DNA from: an uncultured virus (IMG/VR IMGVR_UViG_3300047548_000908)
Taxonomy: Duplodnaviria; Heunggongvirae; Uroviricota; Caudoviricetes
IMG/VR virus record: IMGVR_UViG_3300047548_000908
Location: 117,128-137,127 of that record
Reading direction: 5' to 3' (one strand)
DNA: 20,000 nt
The notes under the pieces are model-generated. The model was not told the DNA's origin. It made no database searches and worked only from the letters and a program-made list of their open reading frames with translations. Of the stretch, positions 3,089 to 17,721 are shown one piece after another. Position 1 is the stretch's first letter, and each line of letters starts with the position of its first letter. Made by a program: the position numbers and the translations under genes.

Positions 3089-6000
3089 TTAACCGCCAAT
3101 TTCACCTGTGTTCAAGATGCGAACTGGGATGTAGATAAATTCAGCAGCCTTAACTGGCTCAATTGCTACATCAACCCACAACTCGTTTCTATCGATACGA
3201 GCAGGGGTGTTATTGCTCTCATCACAAACTACTAAGTAGTCGTAAACACCACGCTTTGCAACTAGATCAACTAACAACGACTGAACAACGCCAGTCATCT
3301 CTTGACGAGTGATTGCATCATTTGGTTCGAACACGAATGGTCTAGCAAGAACTTGTAGACGTTCACGCAAGTAGCAAACTAAACGAGCAACGTTAGTTCT
3401 ATCCATTGCAGATTGTGTGTCTTTAGAGTTCTTGTTACCCCAGTTCAACAAGCCTACGTTCGTGAAGTAAGCAAGTGGGTTCAACTGGTTGGTATAGAGA
3501 ACGTCACGAATTCCCATGCGGTTCTTGATAGACACGAACTCACCGGTAGTCTTTTCGATATAACCAATGTTAGTGGCGTTATCAATTGTACCACGACGAG
3601 TACCTGCTGCTGCGAACCAAGGATAAGCAACCTGATCGTTACGCAAGAATGTACGCAACATCATGTGTGATGCAGGAACAACTACGCTTGCACCAGTCAA
3701 ATCAGTTGCAATTCCGCTTGGATAGAATATACCCATGTATTCATCTCTAGTAACAAGACCATCTTCACCTGTTGATGCAGCGCCTGCTTCGTTTCTTGCC
3801 CAAGCTTGAATTTCAGAAGCTTGATCACTCAAACGTAATGGTGTGTCACCAACGATGTAAGCAGTGTTATTACGATCATTGTTAAGAGCAACCATGTCTG
3901 GTTGTAGCTCAGGATAACCAGGAGAAGCCATTAGATTGAAGAAAGTATCTTCCTCACGAATTCCCATGTTAGTTGTTATTGCTGCTTTAAGTGCCTGAAC
4001 AACCATGTTACGCTGTGCCTTACGACCCATGTATGGAGAACCATCATTTTTTGTTCCGCTAGCAGAAACCCATGCGTTCTTAACTGCTGGTAAAGATCCT
4101 TCGAAGTCTAAACCATTGAAATAGTTAGTCTTGAAAGTCTTGACATTGTAGCCTGAACGACGAGTGTTGAACAATAACATTCCTTGTGGATATGAGTTTG
4201 CATCAGGTGCATCTAAATCTAGGTAGTTACTTGTCAACAAGTTGCTGATTGCTGGAATTGGATCATCGATTGGATCAGTTGTTCCGTTAGGTGCCCAACG
4301 TGCGTCAGCAAAAACGATACCAGTTGAACTAGTTTGATCGGTCTTGTCGATTAAAACCCACTGATCAACGGTGTCAACTGACTGCCAACGATAGATCATT
4401 GGATAGTTTTCTAGATCGCTAGAGTCTAACCACAAGTCACCATATGCCAATTGAGTAACACCGTCTGACTGAGTAGAAGGCTCACTTGCGCTTACAATAA
4501 CCCCATTTGGATCAGTTGAATTAACACCAGTGGCAGCTGGATGACCTGAACTGTCAAATGCCACGTTACCGTAACCTTTCCAAACGTTGTTAACGTTAAC
4601 TAGAATGTCAACTTCATCAACCACGCTATAGTACCATGGAGTACCTGTTGCTGGATCTGCCATCGGGGCACCTTCGTTAGCAGTATAAGAAACTGCAATC
4701 CAGTTTGAAAGAGCAGTTGAATATGTTACTGCTGGTGTACCGCTTACGATACCTACTGACTCGACTGCACCTGCATTTACAGAAATTACAACAAGTGTTA
4801 AGTCATTTGTAGTATCAACACCGCCTAAGTTTGAGCCTAGGATTGTTAGAGTGTCACCCACAGAGTAACCTGATCCACCGGACGTAATTCCGTTGACAAC
4901 ATAGTGAGTTCCTAAGTTGCTTACATTGAATATTGCATCGCCTGTTTCTTCTACAGGAGCAGTTGTATTTTGATAAGTGATAATAGAACCGTTCTTAGCA
5001 CCAGTAACAGTACCTGCGGTGAATCCAGCAGAAGCAATGATACCATCAACTGGATCAGAAATGCCATCAACTGTATCATCAAGTTCAATTACACCACCTG
5101 CAGTGTGAACAATTTGTATTGCACCTGAGGTTGTATTATTGGTGATTGAGGTGTAAGGAATATTTCTTGCTTTCCATGAATTTACGAAAGCGTCAGAGTC
5201 ATTACCAGCAACTTGGAATGCGTAAACATCGCTCATTGCGGAAGATCCTGGAACAGAAACACGAACCTTCAAAACAGATCCGCTAATGAATGTTGGATCA
5301 ACAACACTTCCGGTTACTACTGTTTCACCAGAGACTGCTCTTTCCCAGAAATAAAGAGGCGAAGTGTTAACTGAACCTCCCCACTGATACTGTGCAAAGA
5401 CAGTACCAACTGGAATTGCTGCGCCACCAGTTGAGTCTAAGGTTGCGTTTGCTGCTGCATCGCTAACAAACTGATTTACGGTTTGAACTACGAATGATGC
5501 GGCTGCACTGTTATACTTTGTTAAGATTGGTGTTAATCCATCTCTAGCAGAACCAACTTTAATCCAAACAGAACCAGTTGGTCTTGGCTTCAACTGACTT
5601 GCAGTCCATAGTGGCATCTGTGAAGAAGTGCCATATGTAACTTCTGGTTGATAGAATGTACCCTCATCAATTCCCAAACTAGCTAAAGAGCCAGCAACGA
5701 CATCAGTTAGTGTCAAGTAAGCATCCTTAGCAGGATGTGAAGAGTAAATTACAAGCTTACCGTTAACTGCTTCTGCATAAACGTTTGTAATACCAAATGC
5801 ATTGATTGCATCGACTACGCCTGAGATCGAAGTGCTACCAAATACGATATCAAGTGTGTATTCTCCGTTTACGTTGATTGTGAACTCATGTGATGGGTTC
5901 AATGAATTGTTTGGATCGATACTTCCTGCAACAGTTGCTAGACTTCTCTTCCACTGTGTGCTTCCAACAGGAACCCAAACGTTACTCTTGTTCTTATAGA

Positions 6001-6607
6001 AATACTCAGAAACAGCAGCAGGTGTTTCTGCTGGTTCAATTGCTACTACTGCGTAGTCGCCAATGTTTCCTAACGTAGAAACTGGTGCACCATTGTTGAT
6101 TTGTGCGGCATCAGTAATTACAAATGGAACTTTGTTAGTAAATTTGCCATTAGTTGCATTAAATTCAAAGATGCCCCATAACGAGTTAGTTGTATCTAAC
6201 CAATAAGTACCGTTTGCAGGTGCGCCTGATGGGCGTGAAACCTGTCCCACTAAAGTAGCCAAATCCACATCAGCTCTTAAAACATATGCAGTATTGGTAA
6301 CACCCAACAATGAATAAGCAGCCAATAGACCATACTCATTCAACTCATAACCTTGGATAGGTGTTCCGTTGCTAGTTTTATAGAAGAATGGATTACCGAA
6401 TAGATTAACCAAATCACGTTGGCTAGTAACTTGATATAGCTTGTTAGCATTTCCTTTTGTTGTTGCGATTGCTACTCCTGTTCCAGCAGCATTAGCCTTG
6501 TTTTGAGCAGTAGCTAATACTATCAACGGAACGGAGGCTGCGGCTGTAGTAACGTATTGACTTTGATCAATTACTGTTACCTCTACGCCTGGTGACACTA
6601 GTGCCAT
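3089..6607 (-). CDS. gp18: Tail sheath protein, T4 gp18-like, with large insertions (~1172 aa)
   Basis: N-terminal MALVSPGVEVTVID; C-terminal WFAAAGTRRG, LY..QLNP, WGNK, DR.NVARL, FVFEPND, CDESNNTP..ID.NEL.VDVAIEPVK.AEFIYI. The ATG at 6605-6607 has an AGGAG SD, so it is preferred over the track start at 6643. Confidence 0.96.
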   Translation of the reverse strand: MALVSPGVEVTVIDQSQYVTTAAASVPLIVLATAQNKANAAGTGVAIATTKGNANKLYQVTSQRDLVNLFGNPFFYKTSNGTPIQGYELNEYGLLAAYSLLGVTNTAYVLRADVDLATLVGQVSRPSGAPANGTYWLDTTNSLWGIFEFNATNGKFTNKVPFVITDAAQINNGAPVSTLGNIGDYAVVAIEPAETPAAVSEYFYKNKSNVWVPVGSTQWKRSLATVAGSIDPNNSLNPSHEFTINVNGEYTLDIVFGSTSISGVVDAINAFGITNVYAEAVNGKLVIYSSHPAKDAYLTLTDVVAGSLASLGIDEGTFYQPEVTYGTSSQMPLWTASQLKPRPTGSVWIKVGSARDGLTPILTKYNSAAASFVVQTVNQFVSDAAANATLDSTGGAAIPVGTVFAQYQWGGSVNTSPLYFWERAVSGETVVTGSVVDPTFISGSVLKVRVSVPGSSAMSDVYAFQVAGNDSDAFVNSWKARNIPYTSITNNTTSGAIQIVHTAGGVIELDDTVDGISDPVDGIIASAGFTAGTVTGAKNGSIITYQNTTAPVEETGDAIFNVSNLGTHYVVNGITSGGSGYSVGDTLTILGSNLGGVDTTNDLTLVVISVNAGAVESVGIVSGTPAVTYSTALSNWIAVSYTANEGAPMADPATGTPWYYSVVDEVDILVNVNNVWKGYGNVAFDSSGHPAATGVNSTDPNGVIVSASEPSTQSDGVTQLAYGDLWLDSSDLENYPMIYRWQSVDTVDQWVLIDKTDQTSSTGIVFADARWAPNGTTDPIDDPIPAISNLLTSNYLDLDAPDANSYPQGMLLFNTRRSGYNVKTFKTNYFNGLDFEGSLPAVKNAWVSASGTKNDGSPYMGRKAQRNMVVQALKAAITTNMGIREEDTFFNLMASPGYPELQPDMVALNNDRNNTAYIVGDTPLRLSDQASEIQAWARNEAGAASTGEDGLVTRDEYMGIFYPSGIATDLTGASVVVPASHMMLRTFLRNDQVAYPWFAAAGTRRGTIDNATNIGYIEKTTGEFVSIKNRMGIRDVLYTNQLNPLAYFTNVGLLNWGNKNSKDTQSAMDRTNVARLVCYLRERLQVLARPFVFEPNDAITRQEMTGVVQSLLVDLVAKRGVYDYLVVCDESNNTPARIDRNELWVDVAIEPVKAAEFIYIPVRILNTGEIGG

Positions 6608-6708
6608 TTTTATATCTCCTAATAAGTTTGTTTCTCTAATCATAGAATCAGAGGAGTCCCCGATTCACGAATCTTGATAGCTATACCCTTTTATATCTAT
6701 CATATGGG

Positions 6709-6716
6709 TATTTATG
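6709..6716 (-). promoter_or_regulatory. Late promoter CATAAATA for the sheath
   Basis: NATAAATA box ~100 nt upstream of the sheath ATG. Confidence 0.62.
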
Positions 6717-6763
6717 ATATATTCGTAAAAATAGCCATTTTACCGCACCTTTAAAGGTTATTT

Positions 6764-6771
6764 GATAAATA
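6764..6771 (+). promoter_or_regulatory. Late promoter GATAAATA for the HNH-like gene
   Basis: Box ends 5 nt before the ATG at 6777. Confidence 0.68.
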
Positions 6772-6776
6772 TTTTT

Positions 6777-7124
6777 ATGATCAGACCTATATGCAAACTA
6801 TGTAATAGGAATCACAGGGCTGTAAATTACCACCGAAACGGCAAGACTTACTACCGAAGTTGTTGCGATTCATGCGGAAGAAAGAAATCCAAAAAGTCCC
6901 CATGGAAACCCACTTGGGAAAAAAGCGGATATAAGAAAAAAGCCACATGTGACTTATGTGGCTTTAGAAGTGTTTACTCCTCACAGATTACCGTGTTTCA
7001 TATTGACGGCAAATTAGAGAATACTGAGTTCTCTAATCTTCGGAGCGTATGTTTGAATTGTGTAGAAGTTATAAAAAGAAAAGACCTTAATTGGAAACGA
7101 GGCGATTTAGAAGTCGATTATTGA
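6777..7124 (+). CDS. Zn-finger / HNH-like endonuclease-fold protein
   Basis: CKLC, CDSC, CDLC, then VFHIDG...N....NL...CLNC (beta-beta-alpha-Me pattern). ATG 6777 preferred over TTG 6762. Confidence 0.75.
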   Translation: MIRPICKLCNRNHRAVNYHRNGKTYYRSCCDSCGRKKSKKSPWKPTWEKSGYKKKATCDLCGFRSVYSSQITVFHIDGKLENTEFSNLRSVCLNCVEVIKRKDLNWKRGDLEVDY

Positions 7125-7754
7125 TTCTATTTTGGACCGTAGTTCATCGATTGTTCCATTGTTGTCGATGATATGATCATAGTTTAGCCCTACACTAGAA
7201 TATTCACTAGGATGAATGTTCATCTTATTGAGTGCTTCTTTACTGATAGCCCAACCAATATTAGTAGGACCTTTATTTACTGCGATTGCATGTTCATACC
7301 ATTCAGGGTTAGGTCCTCTGGTCACTCTTAACGTAATTCCTCCTGCCCGTTTAACTGCATCAAGTTCGTTGACGAACCTAGAATCAGTGATTACGATGTT
7401 ATCTTTAGATGATAGTAACTTGTGTTCAACGCTTGCAATCCAAATGCTATCATGAAAATGATTACGACAAACATCAGTTCCCCAGTATTGAAGAATCCAT
7501 CTCGGTGTTAAATGAGGCATATCTAGTCTCGCTGCCCACCAAGGATCAACTTGTTCTCGCCATTCTCTACTAGATTTAGTTGTGCCTTCAAGCATCTCCC
7601 TATCCCAACCAAAAACAGCCGAGACCGCATCTTTTAATGAGGAGGCGAAACTAAGACGTTTAAACCCATGATAAGTTACAAGCAAGTCGGCAATGGTATC
7701 TTTTCCTGATCCAATAAGCCCACTGATACTGATTATCTTCTTTGACTCTTGCAT
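7107..7754 (-). CDS. Deoxynucleoside monophosphate kinase, T4 gp1-like
   Basis: P-loop GLIGSGKDT, SFA..LK, TPR.ILQ.WGTD, VITD.RF.NE, H.SE, IDNNGT. Confidence 0.92.
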   Translation of the reverse strand: MQESKKIISISGLIGSGKDTIADLLVTYHGFKRLSFASSLKDAVSAVFGWDREMLEGTTKSSREWREQVDPWWAARLDMPHLTPRWILQYWGTDVCRNHFHDSIWIASVEHKLLSSKDNIVITDSRFVNELDAVKRAGGITLRVTRGPNPEWYEHAIAVNKGPTNIGWAISKEALNKMNIHPSEYSSVGLNYDHIIDNNGTIDELRSKIESIIDF

Positions 7755-7773
7755 GTTCTACCTTAAAAATAGA

Positions 7774-7802
7774 AGCATAACAAAATTCTAAAGAAAATGC
7801 TA
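7774..7802 (-). promoter_or_regulatory. Possible sigma70 promoter for the dNMP kinase
   Basis: TAGCAT-N17-TATGCT with TG extension on the minus strand; degenerate. Confidence 0.35.
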
Positions 7803-7810
7803 TATATTTT

Positions 7811-8575
7811 TTATCCAATTACCCAAGTCAAAGGTTGTGAATGGTCAGTATAAAGTTGCAGATCCTTAAGTAACTTTTCTTGCATATCTTTTGCTTCAGC
7901 TTTTAATGCAGCCCCGTTCAACGAGCTACCGCCACTCGGTCCTGCAATTGTTGCAAATTTTTCTCTTGCTTCACCTATTGTATATTTGATTTGAGAGAAA
8001 ACCCAATCTCCTATCCAAATTCCAGAACCTGGATCTTGTAGAAGCTCAGATTCAGACCTTTCTAAGTCTCCCCAAATTAATATTTGCTCACCTTGACCTT
8101 TTGGATCACGAACCATTTTTAATTCTTTGGTAACTGGGTTAAAAGTAAAAATTACATACCCACCAAACATTCTAGCAGCCAACTCAATGTACTGAGCATA
8201 GAAGTCATATGTAGCCAAACCGCCAGCGTAGTTATAGTTCAACAGGTAAGTGTTAAGAATAGCACTACTGAATGGGTCGAATGAAGACGCGGCAGGCCCC
8301 GTTTCTAGTCCAACTGTACGTCTGAACACTTGTCTTACATTTATAAACTCTGAAGGGAGAATATATGAGTTTTGATGTTTGTTTATTGTCATCAAGGTGT
8401 ATGATTCGTTCGTGGCGTTTTGCGCTCTCTGACGATATACCTTTAAAGCATACTTATAAGCAGCCTCAAAATGCTCTGGATCTGCCTCGATGTCCACGAT
8501 CCCTGAGCCTAACCGGTATCGAATGTTTTCGAACAGTTCTTCTTTTAGTTGATCCAATGTCATTGCCGTAGCCAT
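7811..8575 (-). CDS. gp13: Neck protein, T4 gp13-like
   Basis: I.YRLG...VDIE near the N-terminus; K..IGEAR.KF..I.GP.GG.SLNG..L..EA..L.....P..W.IG C-terminus typical of gp13 homologues. Confidence 0.85.
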   Translation of the reverse strand: MATAMTLDQLKEELFENIRYRLGSGIVDIEADPEHFEAAYKYALKVYRQRAQNATNESYTLMTINKHQNSYILPSEFINVRQVFRRTVGLETGPAASSFDPFSSAILNTYLLNYNYAGGLATYDFYAQYIELAARMFGGYVIFTFNPVTKELKMVRDPKGQGEQILIWGDLERSESELLQDPGSGIWIGDWVFSQIKYTIGEAREKFATIAGPSGGSSLNGAALKAEAKDMQEKLLKDLQLYTDHSQPLTWVIG

Positions 8576-8580
8576 AAAAA

Positions 8581-8612
8581 ATCTCCAGATGACGTATTTA
8601 TCATCAGGAGAT
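8581..8612 (-). promoter_or_regulatory. Late promoter GATAAATA (8595-8602) inside an SD-sequestering hairpin
   Basis: Minus strand ATCTCC-T-GATGA-taaatacg-TCATC-T-GGAGAT; the 3' arm holds the GGAG SD of gp13. Confidence 0.78.
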
Positions 8613-8633
8613 CTATCAGACGTTAGCTAAGAC

Positions 8634-8840
8634 TTATTTCTTAGCGGATTCCTTCTCTGCTTTTCTTGCGTTTTTCTCAGCAGTAATTTCATTACGGCGT
8701 GCTTTAATTAGCTTTCCGATTTCAGCAAGTGCTTTCCTAGCTCTCGTGCCGGCAGCTGCATTGCCTTTACTAAATTTTTCGTCTTCTTTAACCCACGCCT
8801 CAACTGCGGCTTTGATTTGTTCCACTGTAGTGTTATCCAT
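8634..8840 (-). CDS. Histone H1-like protein, Hc1 family
   Basis: KF.KGN.AAGTRARKAL.EI.KL.K.RR.EI signature; small and basic; AAGGA SD. Confidence 0.82.
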   Translation of the reverse strand: MDNTTVEQIKAAVEAWVKEDEKFSKGNAAAGTRARKALAEIGKLIKARRNEITAEKNARKAEKESAKK

Positions 8841-8884
8841 TTTTTTATTTCCTTAAATAAGACTGAATGTTAATCAGTTAACAT

Positions 8885-8892
8885 TATTTATT
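8885..8892 (-). promoter_or_regulatory. Late promoter AATAAATA upstream of the Hc1-like gene
   Basis: NATAAATA box, followed on the minus strand by inverted repeat AATGTTAA-N4-TTAACATT (8866-8885). Confidence 0.55.
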
Positions 8893-8958
8893 TAATGGAA
8901 CTTTAAGTGTATTTTTTATTCAGGTGTTGTTTTTTCTTTTTCATCATTCTTAGGCAAA

Positions 8959-8983
8959 GGCGAGTAGATATGATCTACTCGCC
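8959..8983 (-). terminator. Perfect 11-bp hairpin, possible 3' end of the structured element
   Basis: GGCGAGTAGAT-ATG-ATCTACTCGCC, followed by TTT on the minus strand. Confidence 0.55.
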
Positions 8984-9332
8984 AAAATAAAACCCATCAT
9001 TCTTGAGGCTCTATAAAAGATGCGACGATGAATTCAAAAATCACGGCGGAGGATTGTCTATGTCTCGCCAACCATATAGGAATTTGCCATATGCGCTGTT
9101 ATGCTGGAACATTGTTCATCGGGTAGTCCCAACCAGCCCGAGCCCTCTATCGCTATTACTATGACTCGGCAACTTCAACCATTAAGATACGGGAAACGTT
9201 TCTGTCATTGGACAGACGTTTAGGCATCAAAGGGTAGTCCCGTAAATTGGTGTTGATCTCACCCGCTACCGCCTCACTTGTAAGGGCGGATTACCGTCAT
9301 ACTCCCAGGTGTATGATTACCTATTGATCAAT
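8984..9332. ncRNA. Candidate structured ncRNA or structured DNA element
   Basis: No ORF in the track, GC-richer than its flanks, many nested stems and repeated motifs (GGGTAGTCCC x2, GATTACC x2), bounded by hairpins. Confidence 0.55.
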
Positions 9333-9355
9333 GAAAAACGGGCATTGCTGCCCGT
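9333..9355 (-). terminator. Rho-independent terminator of the MazG-like operon
   Basis: Minus strand ACGGGCA-GCAA-TGCCCGT-TTTT (GNRA loop), 5 nt after the stop. Confidence 0.85.
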
Positions 9356-9360
9356 ATGAA

Positions 9361-9771
9361 TTACAGATCGCCTTCTTTGCGATTCTCTGAATAGAATGCG
9401 TCGAACGTTCCACCTGGATAACGAGATTCCAGTTTGTGTACGTTTTCTGCTAGTACATCATTAGGGTCATATCCTAGTGCTCTGCAACTATTAATCCAGT
9501 ACCAACCAATGTCACCTAGTTCACGCATCATATGAAAACGATTGTCTTCATTGTATGGCTTACCTTGGAATAGCATCTTTTTGACGATTTCATTAAACTC
9601 GCCGCTTTCGCTTGCCAGTCCGATTCCACCTGTCATTAGAAGAGGGACATTTACGCCCAAGGCACTAAGCTCACGAACCCTAGCAATAAATACCTCTGTG
9701 TCATTGCTGGCTTCACTTGTTACTGCTTGGACGAAGTCCTTGTATTTGTTTAAATCAATTTGTTTTGTCAT
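9361..9771 (-). CDS. mazG: MazG-like NTP pyrophosphohydrolase
   Basis: GLASESGEFNEIVKK...RELGDI.WY....C.ALG.....V...N..KL..RYP motif of the all-alpha NTP-PPases. Confidence 0.9.
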   Translation of the reverse strand: MTKQIDLNKYKDFVQAVTSEASNDTEVFIARVRELSALGVNVPLLMTGGIGLASESGEFNEIVKKMLFQGKPYNEDNRFHMMRELGDIGWYWINSCRALGYDPNDVLAENVHKLESRYPGGTFDAFYSENRKEGDL

Positions 9772-10026: not shown

Positions 10027-10434
10027 TCAACTGATCAAAGATTGCCTTCTAAGTTTTTCTATTTTATGCTCGGCTAACCTTACCAAATGCTCTAGATTCT
10101 CTACAGACTCGCAGTTCCAGCGTCTCAACGCTTTATTGATTGGACTATTTGGATCTCTTTTTGTTTTGGCACTAGCCCGAGATTTTTTCATGCCAGTCAT
10201 TCTAGCACAGAATGATTTTCTACGCTTTGCAGATTTGGAGCCTTTTTTTAGTTTACTAGGTTTAGTAGTGACTGCGGTTTTTAGTTTACTTCCTGGGTTT
10301 TCTCTGCGGTATGCTTTGACGGCTTTCCTGCTCATTCCGTCAGTTTTATCTTTTTTGTTTACCTTTTGCCAGTCTTCGGTTAGTTCTGAAATAATAGATT
10401 CGAATAAATCTTGATATTCACGGACTTTGTTCAT
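10027..10434 (-). CDS. Basic conserved T4-like phage protein (DUF6321-like), probable internal head protein
   Basis: GMS.KAV.AYRRENPGSKLKTAVT...RRKSFCARM.GMKK......DPNS.INKALRRWNC, recalled from T4-like cyanophage proteins; acidic N-terminus with LxE motifs; late promoter. Confidence 0.7.
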   Translation of the reverse strand: MNKVREYQDLFESIISELTEDWQKVNKKDKTDGMSRKAVKAYRRENPGSKLKTAVTTKPSKLKKGSKSAKRRKSFCARMTGMKKSRASAKTKRDPNSPINKALRRWNCESVENLEHLVRLAEHKIEKLRRQSLIS

Positions 10435-16523: not shown

Positions 16524-17639
16524 TTACACGCTTGCTACTGAAACTGTTTCGTTAGCAGTCGGTGCATCTAACGTCCAAGGTACTGATTGACCTGTTGAAA
16601 ATTGTGTCCCTGTTCCTCTGACAACTAATGCTCTTCTTGCAGATAACTTTAGAACATAATAAGTGCCACCGTCGCTGTCTAGTGCGGTAAGTCTCATCTC
16701 ACCTTCGCCTGGCGCGGTTGCTACTAATCTACATTGACCAGTTCCCTGACCAGTTGTGACTAAGTAACGTCTTGAGGATTCTTGCTTTACAATGTCACCT
16801 GCAACAGCACTTGATCCCCCTGGCACAAATGCTACAAAACTAAGTGCATTTTGTGTAGTGTTAGTCAATGATGCAGTAATTGTGCCATTTCCACCAGACA
16901 TCGTTGCAGTTGGAACAGATGTATAACCTGAACCTGCGTTAGTTAATGTAGCAGTACCGATGCCATAACTTACACTTAATGTTGCGCCAGTTCCAGTTGC
17001 ACTATCGGTAGTCGTGGCGACTGGATTACTAGGTAATACTGTGTATGAACCTGCCGATGCAACAGTCACAGCATTTACGCCAAACCCTAAGTTAAAACTT
17101 ACACCCTGAACACCGCCACCATTTGAAGTTGAATCAGGTGTGACTGGGTCGGCTGTGAGAGCAGTGCTCTTAACACCTGCATCAGTGATTGTAATTCCAT
17201 CAATAACACCGGCAGTTGCAGTTACTGTTAAAACTGCAGGTGTTGAAAACCCTGTACTAAACGTAAAGGTATCTCCAGTAACCCAAGTTCCAGTTCCTTG
17301 ATTCTGTACTCCGGCTGTTCTGATCTTTACACTAGCGACAGTAAATGTTGCAGCAGTACCAGTACCACCGACAACGGTTAATACGTCACCTGGTTCATAA
17401 TCAGCATTTGCTGCCCCAGTACCAGATGTTGTGACAGTAGCAGTTTTAGCAACCATCGTTGAAACAACACCAGTCGCTCTTACGCCACCTGGCAACTCAG
17501 GTAAGCCAAATGTAAATGTTGGTATTGCAGTATAATTGTTATTAGTTCCGCCTACGACTAATGTTGACGAAACACTCTCACCACCAATAGCCGGTACGTT
17601 TAAACTTCCAAAAAACTTCTTTTTAATAGGACGTCCCAT
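16524..17639 (-). CDS. Gly/Thr-rich virion (tail-associated) protein
   Basis: MGRPIKKKFFG start with AAGGAG SD; repeated (N/S)xGSGYT / GD.LT / GA.AT beta motifs; C-terminal IVKQ..SRRYLV domain. Confidence 0.7.
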   Translation of the reverse strand: MGRPIKKKFFGSLNVPAIGGESVSSTLVVGGTNNNYTAIPTFTFGLPELPGGVRATGVVSTMVAKTATVTTSGTGAANADYEPGDVLTVVGGTGTAATFTVASVKIRTAGVQNQGTGTWVTGDTFTFSTGFSTPAVLTVTATAGVIDGITITDAGVKSTALTADPVTPDSTSNGGGVQGVSFNLGFGVNAVTVASAGSYTVLPSNPVATTTDSATGTGATLSVSYGIGTATLTNAGSGYTSVPTATMSGGNGTITASLTNTTQNALSFVAFVPGGSSAVAGDIVKQESSRRYLVTTGQGTGQCRLVATAPGEGEMRLTALDSDGGTYYVLKLSARRALVVRGTGTQFSTGQSVPWTLDAPTANETVSVASV

Positions 17640-17661
17640 TTGTTTTCTCCTTAAAATTGGA

Positions 17662-17721
17662 CCGTTCTAGGGCCTACGCTGTGGGACTCACAGCATAAAT
17701 CTTTGAACATGATTATTTATT
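17662..17721 (-). promoter_or_regulatory. Late promoter AATAAATA (17714-17721) plus structured 5' leader
   Basis: Promoter overlaps the fibre stop codon; leader hairpin UAUGCUGUG-AGUCC-CACAGCGUA with outer GUUC/GAAC pairing. Confidence 0.6.

What the first reader, a model, noticed from the sequence alone, without database searches (positions are those of the whole stretch)
8984..9332. ~350-nt densely structured non-coding element between the MazG-like and Hc1-like genes
Seen: the only long gene-free stretch in a tightly packed region, GC-richer than its flanks and bounded by the MazG terminator and an 11-bp hairpin. Stems visible by eye: TTGATC(9253-58)/GATCAA(9326-31) enclosing CCGCC..GGCGG (9269-9289) and TCATAC..GTATGA (9297-9316); TACGGG(9188-93)/CCCGTA(9239-44) enclosing AAACG-TT-TCTGTC-attg-GACAGA-CGTTT; CCGAGCC/GACTCGG (9138-9169); CATAT..ATATG (9073-9093); GGCG..CGCC (9045-9069). 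Two stems have G-U pairs favouring a minus-strand RNA; one (9223-9254) favours plus. I see no tRNA, tmRNA, RNase P or group I intron signatures. Inference: an undescribed phage ncRNA, possibly a partner of the adjacent basic Hc1-like protein, or a structured replication origin or packaging signal.
Basis: partly seen in the sequence, partly recalled or inferred. Interest (0 to 1): 0.8.

Follow-up and report, generated by a model that had tools for sequence, protein, structure and literature searches.

The report
New large pseudoknotted phage RNA
The gene-free stretch encodes a roughly 390-base RNA that folds into many helices and several pseudoknots, is conserved in dozens of uncultured giant phages, and matches no described RNA family, so it looks like a new class of large structured RNA whose job is still unknown.

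Summary
Window 8946-9333, read on the minus strand, is a conserved non-coding RNA of 377-431 nt. A profile of it finds full-length copies in 149 fetched loci, 73 of them distinct with 16-nt flanks. These come from uncultured phage and metagenome contigs, some about 360 kb long. On 51 distinct sequences, my 88-pair structure with four pseudoknot pairings is paired in 93.4% of cells. Shifted controls give 34-44%. Sixty-two pairs carry compensatory changes, and 0 of 500 shuffles reach the observed values. U-G pairs fix the RNA strand as minus. Single-sequence folding energy is no better than shuffles (z -0.76 and -0.60), so only the comparison reveals the structure. No Rfam 15 family matches the window or nine relatives, ARAGORN finds nothing, and there is no coding signal. 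The RNA is an accessory cassette at the variable junction between mazG and the neck gene. Twenty-one of 80 related loci join the two genes with 92 nt or less and no RNA. None of 70 relatives has the Hc1-like gene, so that partnership is not supported, and nothing supports an origin. The 3' segment can pair either locally or with a conserved loop. Function is unknown; I favour an autonomously folding trans-acting RNA.

The parts
8946..9333 (-). The whole conserved RNA element, 388 nt in the window. RNA position p corresponds to window coordinate 9334-p.
   Evidence: blastn and nhmmer homology. Alignments A1-A4. Structure counts.
9326..9331 (-). PKa 5' strand UUGAUC. It pairs with the loop of hairpin P5.
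   Evidence: helix 1: 6 of 6 pairs have changes on both sides, 89.8% of cells paired.
9249..9263 (-). Hairpin P5 (GGUG/CACC). Its loop GAUCAA (9253-9258) is the PKa partner.
   Evidence: The P5 stem itself is poorly aligned by MAFFT (55-58% paired). It is seen by eye as GCG/CGC, GAUG/CAUC and similar.
9298..9322 (-). H-type pseudoknot. P2 is AGGU (9319-9322) with ACCU (9307-9310). P3 is CAUAC (9311-9315) with GUAUG (9298-9302).
   Evidence: P2 96.3% paired, 3 of 4 pairs compensatory. P3 is 71.1% paired, 5 of 5 compensatory. P3 has at least 4 of 5 bp in 53 of 62 sequences under a rigid geometry.
9269..9289 (-). Hairpin P4, CCGCC/GGCGG.
   Evidence: helix 4: 98.8% paired.
9188..9244 (-). P6 (UACGGG/CCCGUA) encloses the conserved GACUACC...AUGC stretch and hairpin P7 (AAACG-UCUGUC/GACAGA-AA-CGUUU).
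   Evidence: helices 7 and 8: 100% and 93.3% paired, 5 of 6 and 7 of 11 pairs compensatory.
9138..9169 (-). Hairpin P9 (CCGAGUC/GGCUCGG) with a conserved 18-nt loop AUAGUAAUAGCGAUAGAG (9145-9162).
   Evidence: helix 9: 99.7% paired, 6 of 7 pairs compensatory. Loop conservation is seen.
9095..9137 (-). P10 (GCUG/CAGC) plus P10a (GUUGGGAC/GUUCCAGC). The loop carries CGAUGAA (9115-9121), the 5' strand of PKc.
   Evidence: helices 11-13. P10a has 8 of 8 pairs compensatory.
9026..9032 (-). PKc 3' strand UUCAUCG. It pairs with the P10a loop.
   Evidence: helix 13: 100% paired, with C-G 25, U-A 25 and U-G 1 at one pair; the divergent member L141 has CCGUGG/CCACGG at this position.
9035..9086 (-). Three-way junction. 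P11 is CAAAU/UUUUG. P12 is a small CC/GG hairpin. P13 is UGGCG/CGCCG with an almost invariant loop AGACAUAGACAAUCCUC (9049-9065).
   Evidence: helices 14-16: 91.6%, 97.3% and 96.1% paired. The 19-mer found 74 viral loci.
8958..8968 (-). Invariant 3' segment UCUACUCGCCU. It is the partner of the P9 loop (PKd', with 9146-9154) and also the 3' arm of the local hairpin P15.
   Evidence: 9 pairs, 99.8% paired. Pair 180-376 is U-A 27 / A-U 22. Pair 182-373 is C-G 46 / U-A 5.
8959..8983 (-). It is an alternative to PKd' and is not terminator-like.
   Evidence: it forms in 62 of 62 sequences (dG -10.4 to -19.8); not scored as a terminator; the 5' arm varies, with compensatory GGC/GCC to GGU/ACC.
8946..8954 (-). 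Conserved 3' tail CCUAAGAAU. It resembles CCUCAAGAAU at 8999-9008 and changes in parallel with it.
9338..9355 (-). Intrinsic terminator of mazG, immediately upstream of the RNA.
   Evidence: A comparable hairpin plus T-run is present in only 17 of 72 distinct relatives.
9361..9771 (-). MazG-like pyrophosphatase gene, the upstream neighbour.
   Evidence: MazG lies upstream on the same strand in 62 of 70 related elements.
8634..8840 (-). Hc1-like gene. It is a window-specific insertion and not part of the RNA system.
   Evidence: PF07432. Found beside 0 of 70 related elements.
7811..8575 (-). Neck / head-tail adaptor (Ad2) gene, the usual downstream neighbour of the RNA. Its promoter-like TGATAAATA lies at 8595-8603 (minus).

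Best explanation
Window 8946-9333, minus strand, encodes a member of an undescribed class of large (377-431 nt), highly structured, multi-pseudoknotted non-coding RNA. The class is carried by uncultured jumbo myophages distantly related to Rak2/K64-1-like phages.

Shown:
- The RNA has about 16 covarying helices.
- The 5' end pairs with the loop of hairpin P5.
- There is an H-type pseudoknot (P2/P3).
- The loop of P10a pairs with a 3' strand (PKc).
- The conserved loop of P9 pairs with an invariant 3' segment (PKd').
- That same 3' segment can instead form a stable local hairpin (P15), so two mutually exclusive 3' conformations are both encoded.
- The gene is an accessory cassette in the variable mazG-to-neck-gene junction. 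It is absent from close relatives.
- It lacks the ATAAATA promoter-like motif that precedes the neighbouring genes.

Inferred:
- It is made by read-through of the mazG transcript, possibly followed by processing.
- It folds autonomously into a compact tertiary structure.
- It acts in trans during infection, as a ribozyme-like, protein-scaffolding or self-assembling RNA comparable in kind to GOLLD or ROOL. It is not a regulator of its neighbours.
- The long invariant loops would serve as tertiary or partner contacts.
- The 3' strand exchange (P15 versus PKd') would work as a folding or activity switch.
For: Homology:
- blastn found 10 of 80 mazG loci with 74-81% identity over the element.
- The 19-mer of the P13 loop found 74 viral loci, of which 73 hold the element or a divergent or partial copy and L154 is a chance match.
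- A P9-loop pattern found 50 viral loci.
- A metagenome pattern found 37 loci.
- In all, 149 loci hold a full-length copy, 73 distinct with flanks.

Structure on alignment A3 (51 distinct sequences):
- 88 pairs, 93.4% of cells paired, against 33.8-43.7% when partners are slid by 1-3 columns.
- 62 pairs have changes on both sides (shuffle mean 42.8).
- 599 compensatory cells (shuffle mean 171.7).
- Covariation score 0.385 against 0.160.
- 0 of 500 shuffles reach the observed value for each of these measures.
- A first version of the structure gave 87.0% paired.
- The divergent member L141 has PKc fully rewritten as CCGUGG/CCACGG.

Strand: U-G is the commonest pair at columns 260-282 (37 of 51) and 376-402 (29 of 51).

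Not coding:
- No conserved ORF.
- The median longest stop-free run is 43 codons on one strand and 59 on the other.
- Column variability is 0.185, 0.193 and 0.190 by position modulo 3.

Not a known family:
- Rfam gathering thresholds give no hit in the region.
- At E<=10 there are 7 matches of 10.7-17.9 bits, against gathering scores of 40-80.
- Nine relatives give one irrelevant match.
- ARAGORN finds 0 genes.

Accessory cassette:
- 21 of 80 mazG loci have the neck gene 48-92 nt after mazG with no RNA.
- Other loci carry different cargo at the same junction.

Transcription context:
- ATAAATA lies within 80 nt upstream in 0 of 72 distinct loci, and within 120 nt downstream in 64 of 72.

3' alternatives:
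- PKd' has 9 pairs, 99.8% paired, with two covarying pairs.
- P15 forms in 62 of 62 sequences and has its own compensatory changes.
Against: - There is no evidence that the RNA is made. No RNA run was available, so expression, ends and abundance are unknown.
- Folding energy of the single sequence is no better than shuffles.
- In the window and 16 other distinct relatives (17 of 72), a strong terminator-like hairpin with a T-run sits directly upstream. This argues against simple read-through there. No promoter of its own was recognised.
- A fixed position 60-100 nt upstream of the neck gene in 62 of 70 relatives, together with two alternative 3' structures, is also what a cis-regulator would show.
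- The trans-acting, ribozyme or scaffold part of the statement is inference from size, complexity and accessory status only.
- Related sequences can beat column shuffles without any structure. The slid-partner control is the stronger one here.
- The structure was drawn partly from the window sequence itself.
- The P5 stem and the local hairpin are poorly resolved in the MAFFT alignment.
Confidence: 0.6

Rival explanations
1. It is a cis-acting element of the surrounding transcription unit. Either it is a structured 3' UTR that sets the end, stability or processing of the mazG transcript, or it is a riboswitch-like or protein-responsive leader controlling read-through into the neck and tail genes. 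The P15 hairpin versus PKd' exchange would be the expression platform.
For: - It is always on the same strand as its neighbours. mazG is upstream in 62 of 70 and the neck gene downstream in 62 of 70, typically 60-100 nt away.
- There is no promoter-like ATAAATA upstream (0 of 72), so it is probably part of the upstream transcript.
- Two mutually exclusive pairings of the invariant 3' segment are both supported by compensatory changes.
Against: - Close relatives express the same neighbours without it: 21 of 80 loci have a 48-92 nt junction.
- The neck gene keeps its own promoter-like hairpin with ATAAATA in 64 of 72 loci.
- In the window, and in locus L092 (the same contig as L002), other genes lie between the RNA and the neck gene.
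- P15 is not followed by a U-run in most members, which read AUUGCC, so it is not a classical terminator.
- About 390 nt with four pseudoknot pairings is far larger than known cis-regulators of this kind. That comparison rests on general knowledge and was not tested.
Confidence: 0.2
2. It is a very divergent or degenerate member of a known large RNA class (group I or II intron remnant, tmRNA, RNase P RNA, GOLLD/ROOL) that the covariance models fail to recognise.
For: - It has a multi-pseudoknot architecture and a size typical of such classes.
- There is a weak resemblance, recalled from memory, of GGGACUACC and GAGACAUAGAC to the group I R and S elements.
- Homing endonuclease genes occur nearby: an HNH ORF at 6762-7124, and a homing endonuclease at the same place in K64-1.
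Against: - No Rfam 15 model scores above 17.9 bits in the region at E<=10, and none does in nine diverse relatives at E<=1.
- ARAGORN finds no tmRNA.
- The element does not interrupt a gene. Relatives without it have a plain 48-92 nt intergenic junction.
- The order of helices (5' end paired to a hairpin loop, 3' strand paired to two loops) does not match the tmRNA, RNase P or group I topologies as I recall them. This is inference.
Confidence: 0.05
3. It acts at the DNA level as a replication origin, packaging site or recombination hot spot whose hairpins form in DNA.
For: - It lies at a hypervariable junction where different cargo is inserted.
- It contains many inverted repeats.
Against: - Pairs are kept through U-G and G-U, which would be C-A or A-C on the other strand.
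- Long-range and loop pairings are typical of RNA tertiary structure.
- There is no GC-skew inflection at the element.
- Close relatives lack it, which an essential origin or pac site would not allow.
Confidence: 0.03
4. It is the RNA partner of the adjacent basic Hc1-like protein.
For: Adjacency in the window only.
Against: No Hc1 homologue was found beside any of 70 related elements, each examined with 1.5 kb on either side.
Confidence: 0.02
5. It is a decayed protein-coding gene or a chance collection of hairpins.
For: - Folding energy is no better than shuffles.
- A short peptide-like stretch (GDDEF..GGGLSMSRQP) recurs on the opposite strand in three relatives.
Against: - 74-81% nucleotide identity with no frame kept, and the frames differ between relatives.
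- No three-base periodicity.
- 62 compensatory pairs.
Confidence: 0.01

Closest known systems
GOLLD and ROOL (large 'ornate' structured RNAs found mainly in phages and prophages; Rfam families)
   Same: Large, phage-borne, rich in pseudoknots and conserved loops, accessory rather than universal, and of unknown function when found. Covarying 'pseudoknots' in such RNAs can turn out to be contacts between molecules. I saw the search listing and abstract of bioRxiv 10.1101/2024.12.08.627333; the rest is recalled.
   Different: - No sequence or structure match to either Rfam model.
- Smaller: about 390 nt against roughly 580-800 nt (recalled).
- No tRNA genes nearby, with 0 in the 20-kb window.
- A different host group of phages.
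Candidate structured RNAs of IMG/VR (Fremin, Bhatt and Kyrpides 2023, PMC10690425)
   Same: The same kind of source data (IMG/VR intergenic regions) and the same kind of evidence (covariation).
   Different: Their 8,495 DNA-virus candidates are 29-151 nt long (section 2.1, read), so the 390-nt RNA as a whole is not among them. Single hairpins of it might be. The supplementary alignments could not be searched because the look-ups timed out.
phi29 packaging RNA (pRNA)
   Same: A phage-encoded, non-coding, structured RNA that works in trans and uses loop-loop pairing. It lies close to structural genes. (Recalled.)
   Different: - pRNA is about 120-174 nt, belongs to small phi29-like podophages and has an Rfam model.
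- No match here.
- Nothing here links the RNA to packaging.
tmRNA
   Same: About 360 nt with several pseudoknots, and sometimes phage-encoded. (Recalled.)
   Different: - ARAGORN finds none, and there is no Rfam tmRNA hit.
- There is no 5'/3' acceptor stem, T-arm or CCA end.
- There is no conserved tag reading frame.

Membership tests
Any Rfam 15 family (4227 models) | Covariance-model score at or above the family's gathering score | tested here: not met
   the only hit in the window is freshwater-2 at 17637-17714; the best score in 8800-9450 is 17.9 bits, against gathering scores of 40-80; nine relatives give one unrelated match at E 0.42.
Group I intron | Match to the group I model (RF00028) | tested here: not met
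   No Intron_gpI match at E<=10 or at E<=1 in relatives.
Group I intron | Interrupts a gene, so that removing it restores a continuous reading frame | tested here: not met
   It lies after the mazG stop codon and terminator and before the neck gene's promoter-like hairpin. Relatives without it have a 48-92 nt intergenic junction.
Group I intron | P3-P7 pseudoknot core with a guanosine-binding site | not tested
   Only a recalled resemblance of two short motifs. The helix order found here does not suggest this core.
tmRNA | tRNA-like domain formed by the 5' and 3' ends, plus a tag reading frame | tested here: not met
   ARAGORN finds 0 genes. The 5' end pairs with an internal hairpin loop instead. 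There is no conserved ORF.
RNase P RNA | Match to the bacterial or archaeal RNase P models with their conserved regions | tested here: not met
   No hit at E<=10.
Intrinsic terminator (for the 3' hairpin P15) | GC-rich hairpin followed directly by a U-run | tested here: not met
   Not reported by the terminator scan. Most relatives read AUUGCC after the stem, and the U-run precedes the stem.
Riboswitch or cis-regulatory leader | Conserved sensor domain coupled to alternative structures that control an adjacent gene | tested here: inconclusive
   Alternative pairings of the 3' segment exist. However, the neighbours are expressed without the element in close relatives, other genes can intervene, and the downstream gene keeps its own promoter-like motif. 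No ligand or effector could be tested.
GOLLD / ROOL type large phage RNAs | Homology to the published consensus | tested here: not met
   No Rfam match. The resemblance is in kind only.
GOLLD / ROOL type large phage RNAs | Self-assembly into multimers | not testable with these tools
   Covariation cannot tell pairing within one molecule from pairing between molecules.

The most novel reading that the evidence does not exclude
This is a new class of large natural RNA with a function of its own, either a ribozyme or a self-assembling RNA particle. It is carried as a gene-sized accessory cassette by jumbo phages. Its activity would be gated by a strand exchange in which an invariant 3' segment leaves a local hairpin and docks into a conserved hairpin loop. 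Some of the covarying 'pseudoknots' (5' end with P5 loop, P10a loop and P9 loop with the 3' strand) may be contacts between molecules.
Probability: 0.25. Interest if true: 0.9.

Novelty: categorically new. Interest (0 to 1): 0.8.

Why it matters
Large natural RNAs with many pseudoknots and long invariant loops are rare. Historically they have turned out to be ribozymes, cores of ribonucleoprotein machines or, recently, self-assembling RNA cages.

This one is well defined. It has clear ends, about 88 supported base pairs, 60-70 distinct natural variants, and divergent members that rewrite whole helices. It is short enough (about 390 nt) for direct transcription, chemical probing and cryo-EM.

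It is an optional cassette in jumbo phages, sitting at a junction where phages swap accessory genes. That points to a role in the phage-host contest rather than in core replication. An RNA-only accessory function of this complexity in a phage would be unusual.

The finding also shows a limit of single-sequence folding statistics. The energy z-score test failed even though the structure is among the best supported by covariation.

Tried and rejected
- Single-sequence folding: z -0.76 and -0.60. Uninformative, because pseudoknots are not modelled.
- RNAalifold on the raw MAFFT alignment A2: recovered only part of the nested helices, so the structure was drawn by hand and by a covariation scan.
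- blastn against 50,697 GenBank phage records: only the mazG part matched (87 records, 60-80% identity). No cultured phage holds a detectable copy.
- Genome scan with the 19-mer: 9 matches in bacterial genomes. None holds the element by nhmmer, and one has only a local 18-bit hit around the motif. I read these as chance matches.
- Sequencing runs: no RNA holder was listed. This is no evidence either way, and read laying was therefore not used.
- Earlier findings of this scan: nothing on record.
- Supplements of PMC10690425: the archives with alignments could not be read within the time limit.
- First version of the P9-loop pseudoknot, with UCGC at 9022-9025 (PKd): 95.6% paired, with C-A mismatches in some sequences. 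Replaced by the better supported partner at 8958-8968 (99.8% paired). The pairing of 9021-9025 with the 5' arm of P15 was tested and rejected (55.1% paired).
- A closing helix between the 5' and 3' flanks: good in the window (-7.0 kcal/mol), L096, L030 and L006, but weak or absent in most of 73 sequences. Not claimed.
- A possible extra pairing of UGG (9179-9181) with CCG (9120-9122): position 154 follows 213 in only 31 of 51 sequences. Rejected in favour of PKc.
- A possible tertiary pair 162-277: 48 of 62 compatible, 12 A-A. Left open.
- A whole-length covariance model was not built, because the tool's calibration limit excludes models of this length.
- P5 and P15 are poorly aligned by MAFFT. 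P15 was checked per sequence instead.
- Two divergent members (L094, L141) and the chance match L154 were left out of alignments A2 and A3 before counting. L094 and L141 were examined separately.
Full report
**What is there.** Window 8841-9360 is the gap between two minus-strand genes. One is an Hc1-like gene (8634-8840; Pfam PF07432, E 1.8e-14). The other is a MazG-like gene (9361-9771). The gap holds only short ORFs of 30-53 aa. The mazG terminator lies at 9338-9355 on the minus strand. An 11-bp hairpin lies at 8959-8983. Further downstream on the minus strand come a neck or head-tail adaptor gene (7811-8575), a dNMP kinase, an HNH ORF on the other strand, and a 1184-aa tail sheath.

**First tests on the single sequence were negative.**
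- Rfam 15 at gathering thresholds has no hit in the gap. The only hit in the window is freshwater-2 at 17637-17714.
- At E<=10 the region gives seven matches of 10.7-17.9 bits to families whose gathering scores are 40-80.
- ARAGORN finds no tRNA or tmRNA in the window.
- Folding energy is no better than dinucleotide shuffles on either strand. The minus strand gives z -0.76, with 19 of 100 shuffles as good. The plus strand gives z -0.60, with 33 of 100.

**Relatives change the picture.**
- A search for MazG relatives in IMG/VR gave 80 loci. blastn with the intergenic region found 10 of them with 74-81% nucleotide identity over window 8946-9330. No ORF is conserved there.
- The almost invariant 19-mer of one loop found 74 viral loci. 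A second pattern from another loop found 50. A metagenome scan found 37.
- With an nhmmer profile of the alignment, 149 fetched loci hold a full-length copy: 10 from the mazG set, 59 and 48 from the two viral scans, 31 from metagenomes, and the window itself. The sets overlap in contigs.
- Before the metagenome scan there were 61 distinct element sequences beside the window's, 377-431 nt long with a median of 385. Over all 149 loci there are 73 distinct sequences when 16-nt flanks are included.
- Of the 74 loci found by the 19-mer, one (L154) is a chance match. Two (L141, L094) are divergent members scoring 145 and 75 bits. I left these three out of alignments A2 and A3 and looked at the two divergent members separately.
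- Nine matches of the 19-mer in bacterial genomes do not hold the element and are of the number expected by chance.
- No GenBank phage record has a blastn-detectable copy.

**Structure.** I number the RNA from window 9333 (position 1) down to 8946 (position 388). From the alignments, a covariation scan and inspection, I drew the helices below.

| Helix | Positions | Note |
|---|---|---|
| PKa | 3-8 with 76-81 | 5' strand pairs with the loop of hairpin P5 |
| P5 | 71-74 / 82-85 | hairpin |
| P2 | 12-15 / 24-27 | H-type pseudoknot with P3 |
| P3 | 19-23 / 32-36 | H-type pseudoknot with P2 |
| P4 | 45-49 / 61-65 | hairpin |
| P6 | 90-95 / 141-146 | encloses the conserved GACUACC...AUGC stretch and P7 |
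| P7 | 113-123 / 128-140 | hairpin |
| P9 | 165-171 / 190-196 | conserved loop AUAGUAAUWGCGAUAGAG |
| P10 / P10a | 197-208 / 224-239 | |
| PKc | 213-219 (P10a loop) with 302-308 | pseudoknot |
| P11 | 248-252 / 295-299 | closes a three-way junction with P12 and P13 |
| P12 | 254-256 / 260-262 | small hairpin |
| P13 | 264-268 / 286-290 | nearly invariant 17-nt loop AGACAUAGNCAAUCCUC |
| PKd' | 180-188 (P9 loop) with 366-376 | pseudoknot |

Counted on A3 (51 distinct sequences), the 88 pairs give these results:

| Measure | Observed | Control |
|---|---|---|
| Cells paired | 93.4% | 33.8-43.7% with partners slid 1-3 columns |
| Pairs with changes on both sides | 62 | shuffle mean 42.8 |
| Compensatory cells | 599 | shuffle mean 171.7 |
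| Covariation score | 0.385 | 0.160 |

None of 500 shuffles reached the observed value for any of these measures. A first version of the structure gave 87.0% paired.

- Several helices are rewritten completely between members. Examples are CAUAC/GUAUG, CCACA/UGUGG and GCAUG/CAUGC in P3, and CCGAGUC/GGCUCGG versus CCAAAAG/CUUUUGG in P9.
- In the divergent member L141, the PKc pairing CGAUGAA/UUCAUCG is replaced by CCGUGG/CCACGG.
- U-G is the commonest pair at two positions, 37 of 51 and 29 of 51. This fixes the RNA strand as the window's minus strand.
- The weakly resolved parts are P5 (55-58% paired in the MAFFT columns) and P3 (71%). Both suffer from register shifts. With a rigid per-sequence search, P3 has at least 4 of 5 pairs in 53 of 62 sequences.

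**Coding is excluded.** There is no conserved frame. The median longest stop-free runs are 43 and 59 codons on the two strands. Column variability shows no three-base periodicity, at 0.185, 0.193 and 0.190.

**The 3' end has two encoded conformations.**
- Its 3' arm is invariant while its 5' arm varies in sequence and register.
- The same 3' arm is complementary to the invariant P9 loop. GCGAUAGA pairs with UCUA-C-UCGC, and W180 pairs with W'376.
- This gives nine pairs, 99.8% paired. Pair 180-376 swaps U-A (27) and A-U (22). Pair 182-373 swaps C-G (46) and U-A (5).
- The local hairpin also has compensatory changes: GGC/GCC to GGU/ACC in five sequences, and G to A with C370 to U in L096 and L101.
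- The two pairings exclude each other. In isolation the hairpin is the more stable in 62 of 62 sequences.
- I read this as a built-in alternative, either a folding intermediate or a switch. I cannot say which state is functional.
- P15 is not a terminator. The scan does not report it. In most members the stem is followed by AUUGCC, and the U-run precedes the stem.
- One observation remains unexplained. CCUCAAGAAU before the hairpin and GCCUAAGAAU after it change in parallel, for example AGU/AGU in L109 and AGG/AGG in L091.

**Genomic setting.**
- Among 70 related elements with 1.5-kb flanks, mazG lies upstream on the same strand in 62. The neck gene lies downstream on the same strand in 62, mostly 60-100 nt away. 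An Hc1 homologue was found in none.
- In the window, the Hc1-like gene is therefore an extra insertion between the RNA and the neck gene. The neck gene keeps its own inverted repeat with TGATAAATA at 8595-8603.
- Of the 80 mazG loci, only 10 hold the full RNA, plus one copy cut by a contig end.
- In 21 loci the neck gene follows mazG after only 48-92 nt. Others carry different cargo there, such as two ORFs of about 90 aa or a 239-aa ORF.
- The RNA is thus an optional cassette in a variable junction.
- ATAAATA, the promoter-like motif before the neck gene, occurs within 120 nt downstream of the RNA in 64 of 72 distinct loci. It occurs within 80 nt upstream in none. Seventeen of 72 have a strong hairpin with a T-run directly upstream, as the window does.
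- The simplest reading is transcription from upstream, as the tail of the mazG transcript. The upstream terminators in some members remain unexplained.

**Which phages carry it.**
- The record is 137 kb and is estimated to be 35% complete.
- The neck protein's best cultured relatives are jumbo myophages of the Rak2/K64-1 type, at about 38% identity (Xanthomonas phage XaC1, Klebsiella phage K64-1, E. coli phages of 350-385 kb).
- These share the order neck gene, homing endonuclease or small ORF, dNMP kinase, sheath. They have no 400-nt gap before the neck gene.
- Two metagenome contigs with the RNA are about 359 kb long.
- The mazG DNA resembles that of cyanomyoviruses. The structural module, however, points to jumbo phages.

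**Comparison with what is known.**
- No Rfam family matches the window or nine diverse members.
- It is not an intron, because it interrupts no gene.
- It is not a tmRNA, because ARAGORN finds none and the ends do not pair with each other.
- It resembles GOLLD and ROOL only in kind.
- The IMG/VR screen of Fremin et al. (PMC10690425; abstract and section 2.1 read) reports candidates of 29-151 nt. It can therefore at most hold fragments of this RNA. Its supplementary alignments could not be searched.
- Full-text searches returned no description. These comprised three topic searches, one for motif strings (whose single hit is an unrelated paper) and one for jumbo-phage ncRNAs. The Minerva preprint (10.64898/2026.09.22.753630) had no occurrence of six context terms (MazG, myovir, T4-like, freshwater, head-tail, novel ncRNA).

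**Verdict.**
- The interpretation 'undescribed phage ncRNA' is supported.
- The Hc1 partnership and the origin or packaging ideas are not supported.
- That this is a real, strand-specific, structured RNA I put at about 0.95.
- That it is an undescribed class, at about 0.8.
- That it works in trans as an autonomous folded RNA rather than as a cis-regulator, at about 0.6.
- Expression, ends, partners and activity are all untested.

Noticed in passing
window 17637-17714 (minus): A match to Rfam freshwater-2 RNA (RF02980): 56.5 bits against a gathering score of 49.9. It is a second, known structured motif in the same window.
   Followed up: no
window 8576-8625 (minus); L009, L015, L022, L037 and other loci just before the neck gene: A conserved inverted repeat of the form CUCCNGAUAAAUAC...AUCUGGAG lies directly before the neck gene's start. 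It contains a T4-late-promoter-like ATAAATA in its 5' arm and loop and the GGAG ribosome-binding site in its 3' arm. Exact TGATAAATA also lies before the gene at 10434 and at 6763.
   Followed up: partly
mazG-to-neck junction in L002-L081: The junction is a hot spot for accessory cargo. Observed states are nothing (48-92 nt), two ORFs of about 90 aa (one ending ...WFAWYPVK...YRRKIN...), a 239-aa ORF, the RNA cassette, or in the window the RNA plus an Hc1-like gene.
   Followed up: partly
window 3089-8575 compared with L215 (K64-1) and L216 (XaC1): The order neck gene, HNH or homing endonuclease, dNMP kinase, tail sheath is shared with Rak2/K64-1-like jumbo phages. The window's record (137 kb, 35% complete) is therefore probably a fragment of a genome of about 360-390 kb.
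   Followed up: partly
window 8999-9008 and 8946-8955 (minus): Two similar motifs, CCUCAAGAAU and GCCUAAGAAU, flank the 3' hairpin. They change in parallel in several lineages, as if both met the same partner. No complementary sequence was found within the RNA.
   Followed up: partly
RNA positions 162 and 277 (window 9172 and 9057): The only variable base of the invariant P13 loop tracks a base in the junction before P9. The counts are A with U 40, G with C 6, U with A 2, and 12 A-A exceptions. This may be a tertiary pair.
   Followed up: no
window 9232-9241 and 9121-9130 (minus): GGGACUACCC occurs twice in the window's RNA, once in the P6 domain and once in the P10a loop. The second copy is not conserved in relatives.
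   Followed up: no
window 8936-8943 and 9338-9345: In the window the U-run of the mazG terminator is complementary to an A-run just after the RNA (UUUUUCAU / AUGAAAAA; -7.0 kcal/mol). A comparable closing helix is seen in only a few relatives.
   Followed up: partly
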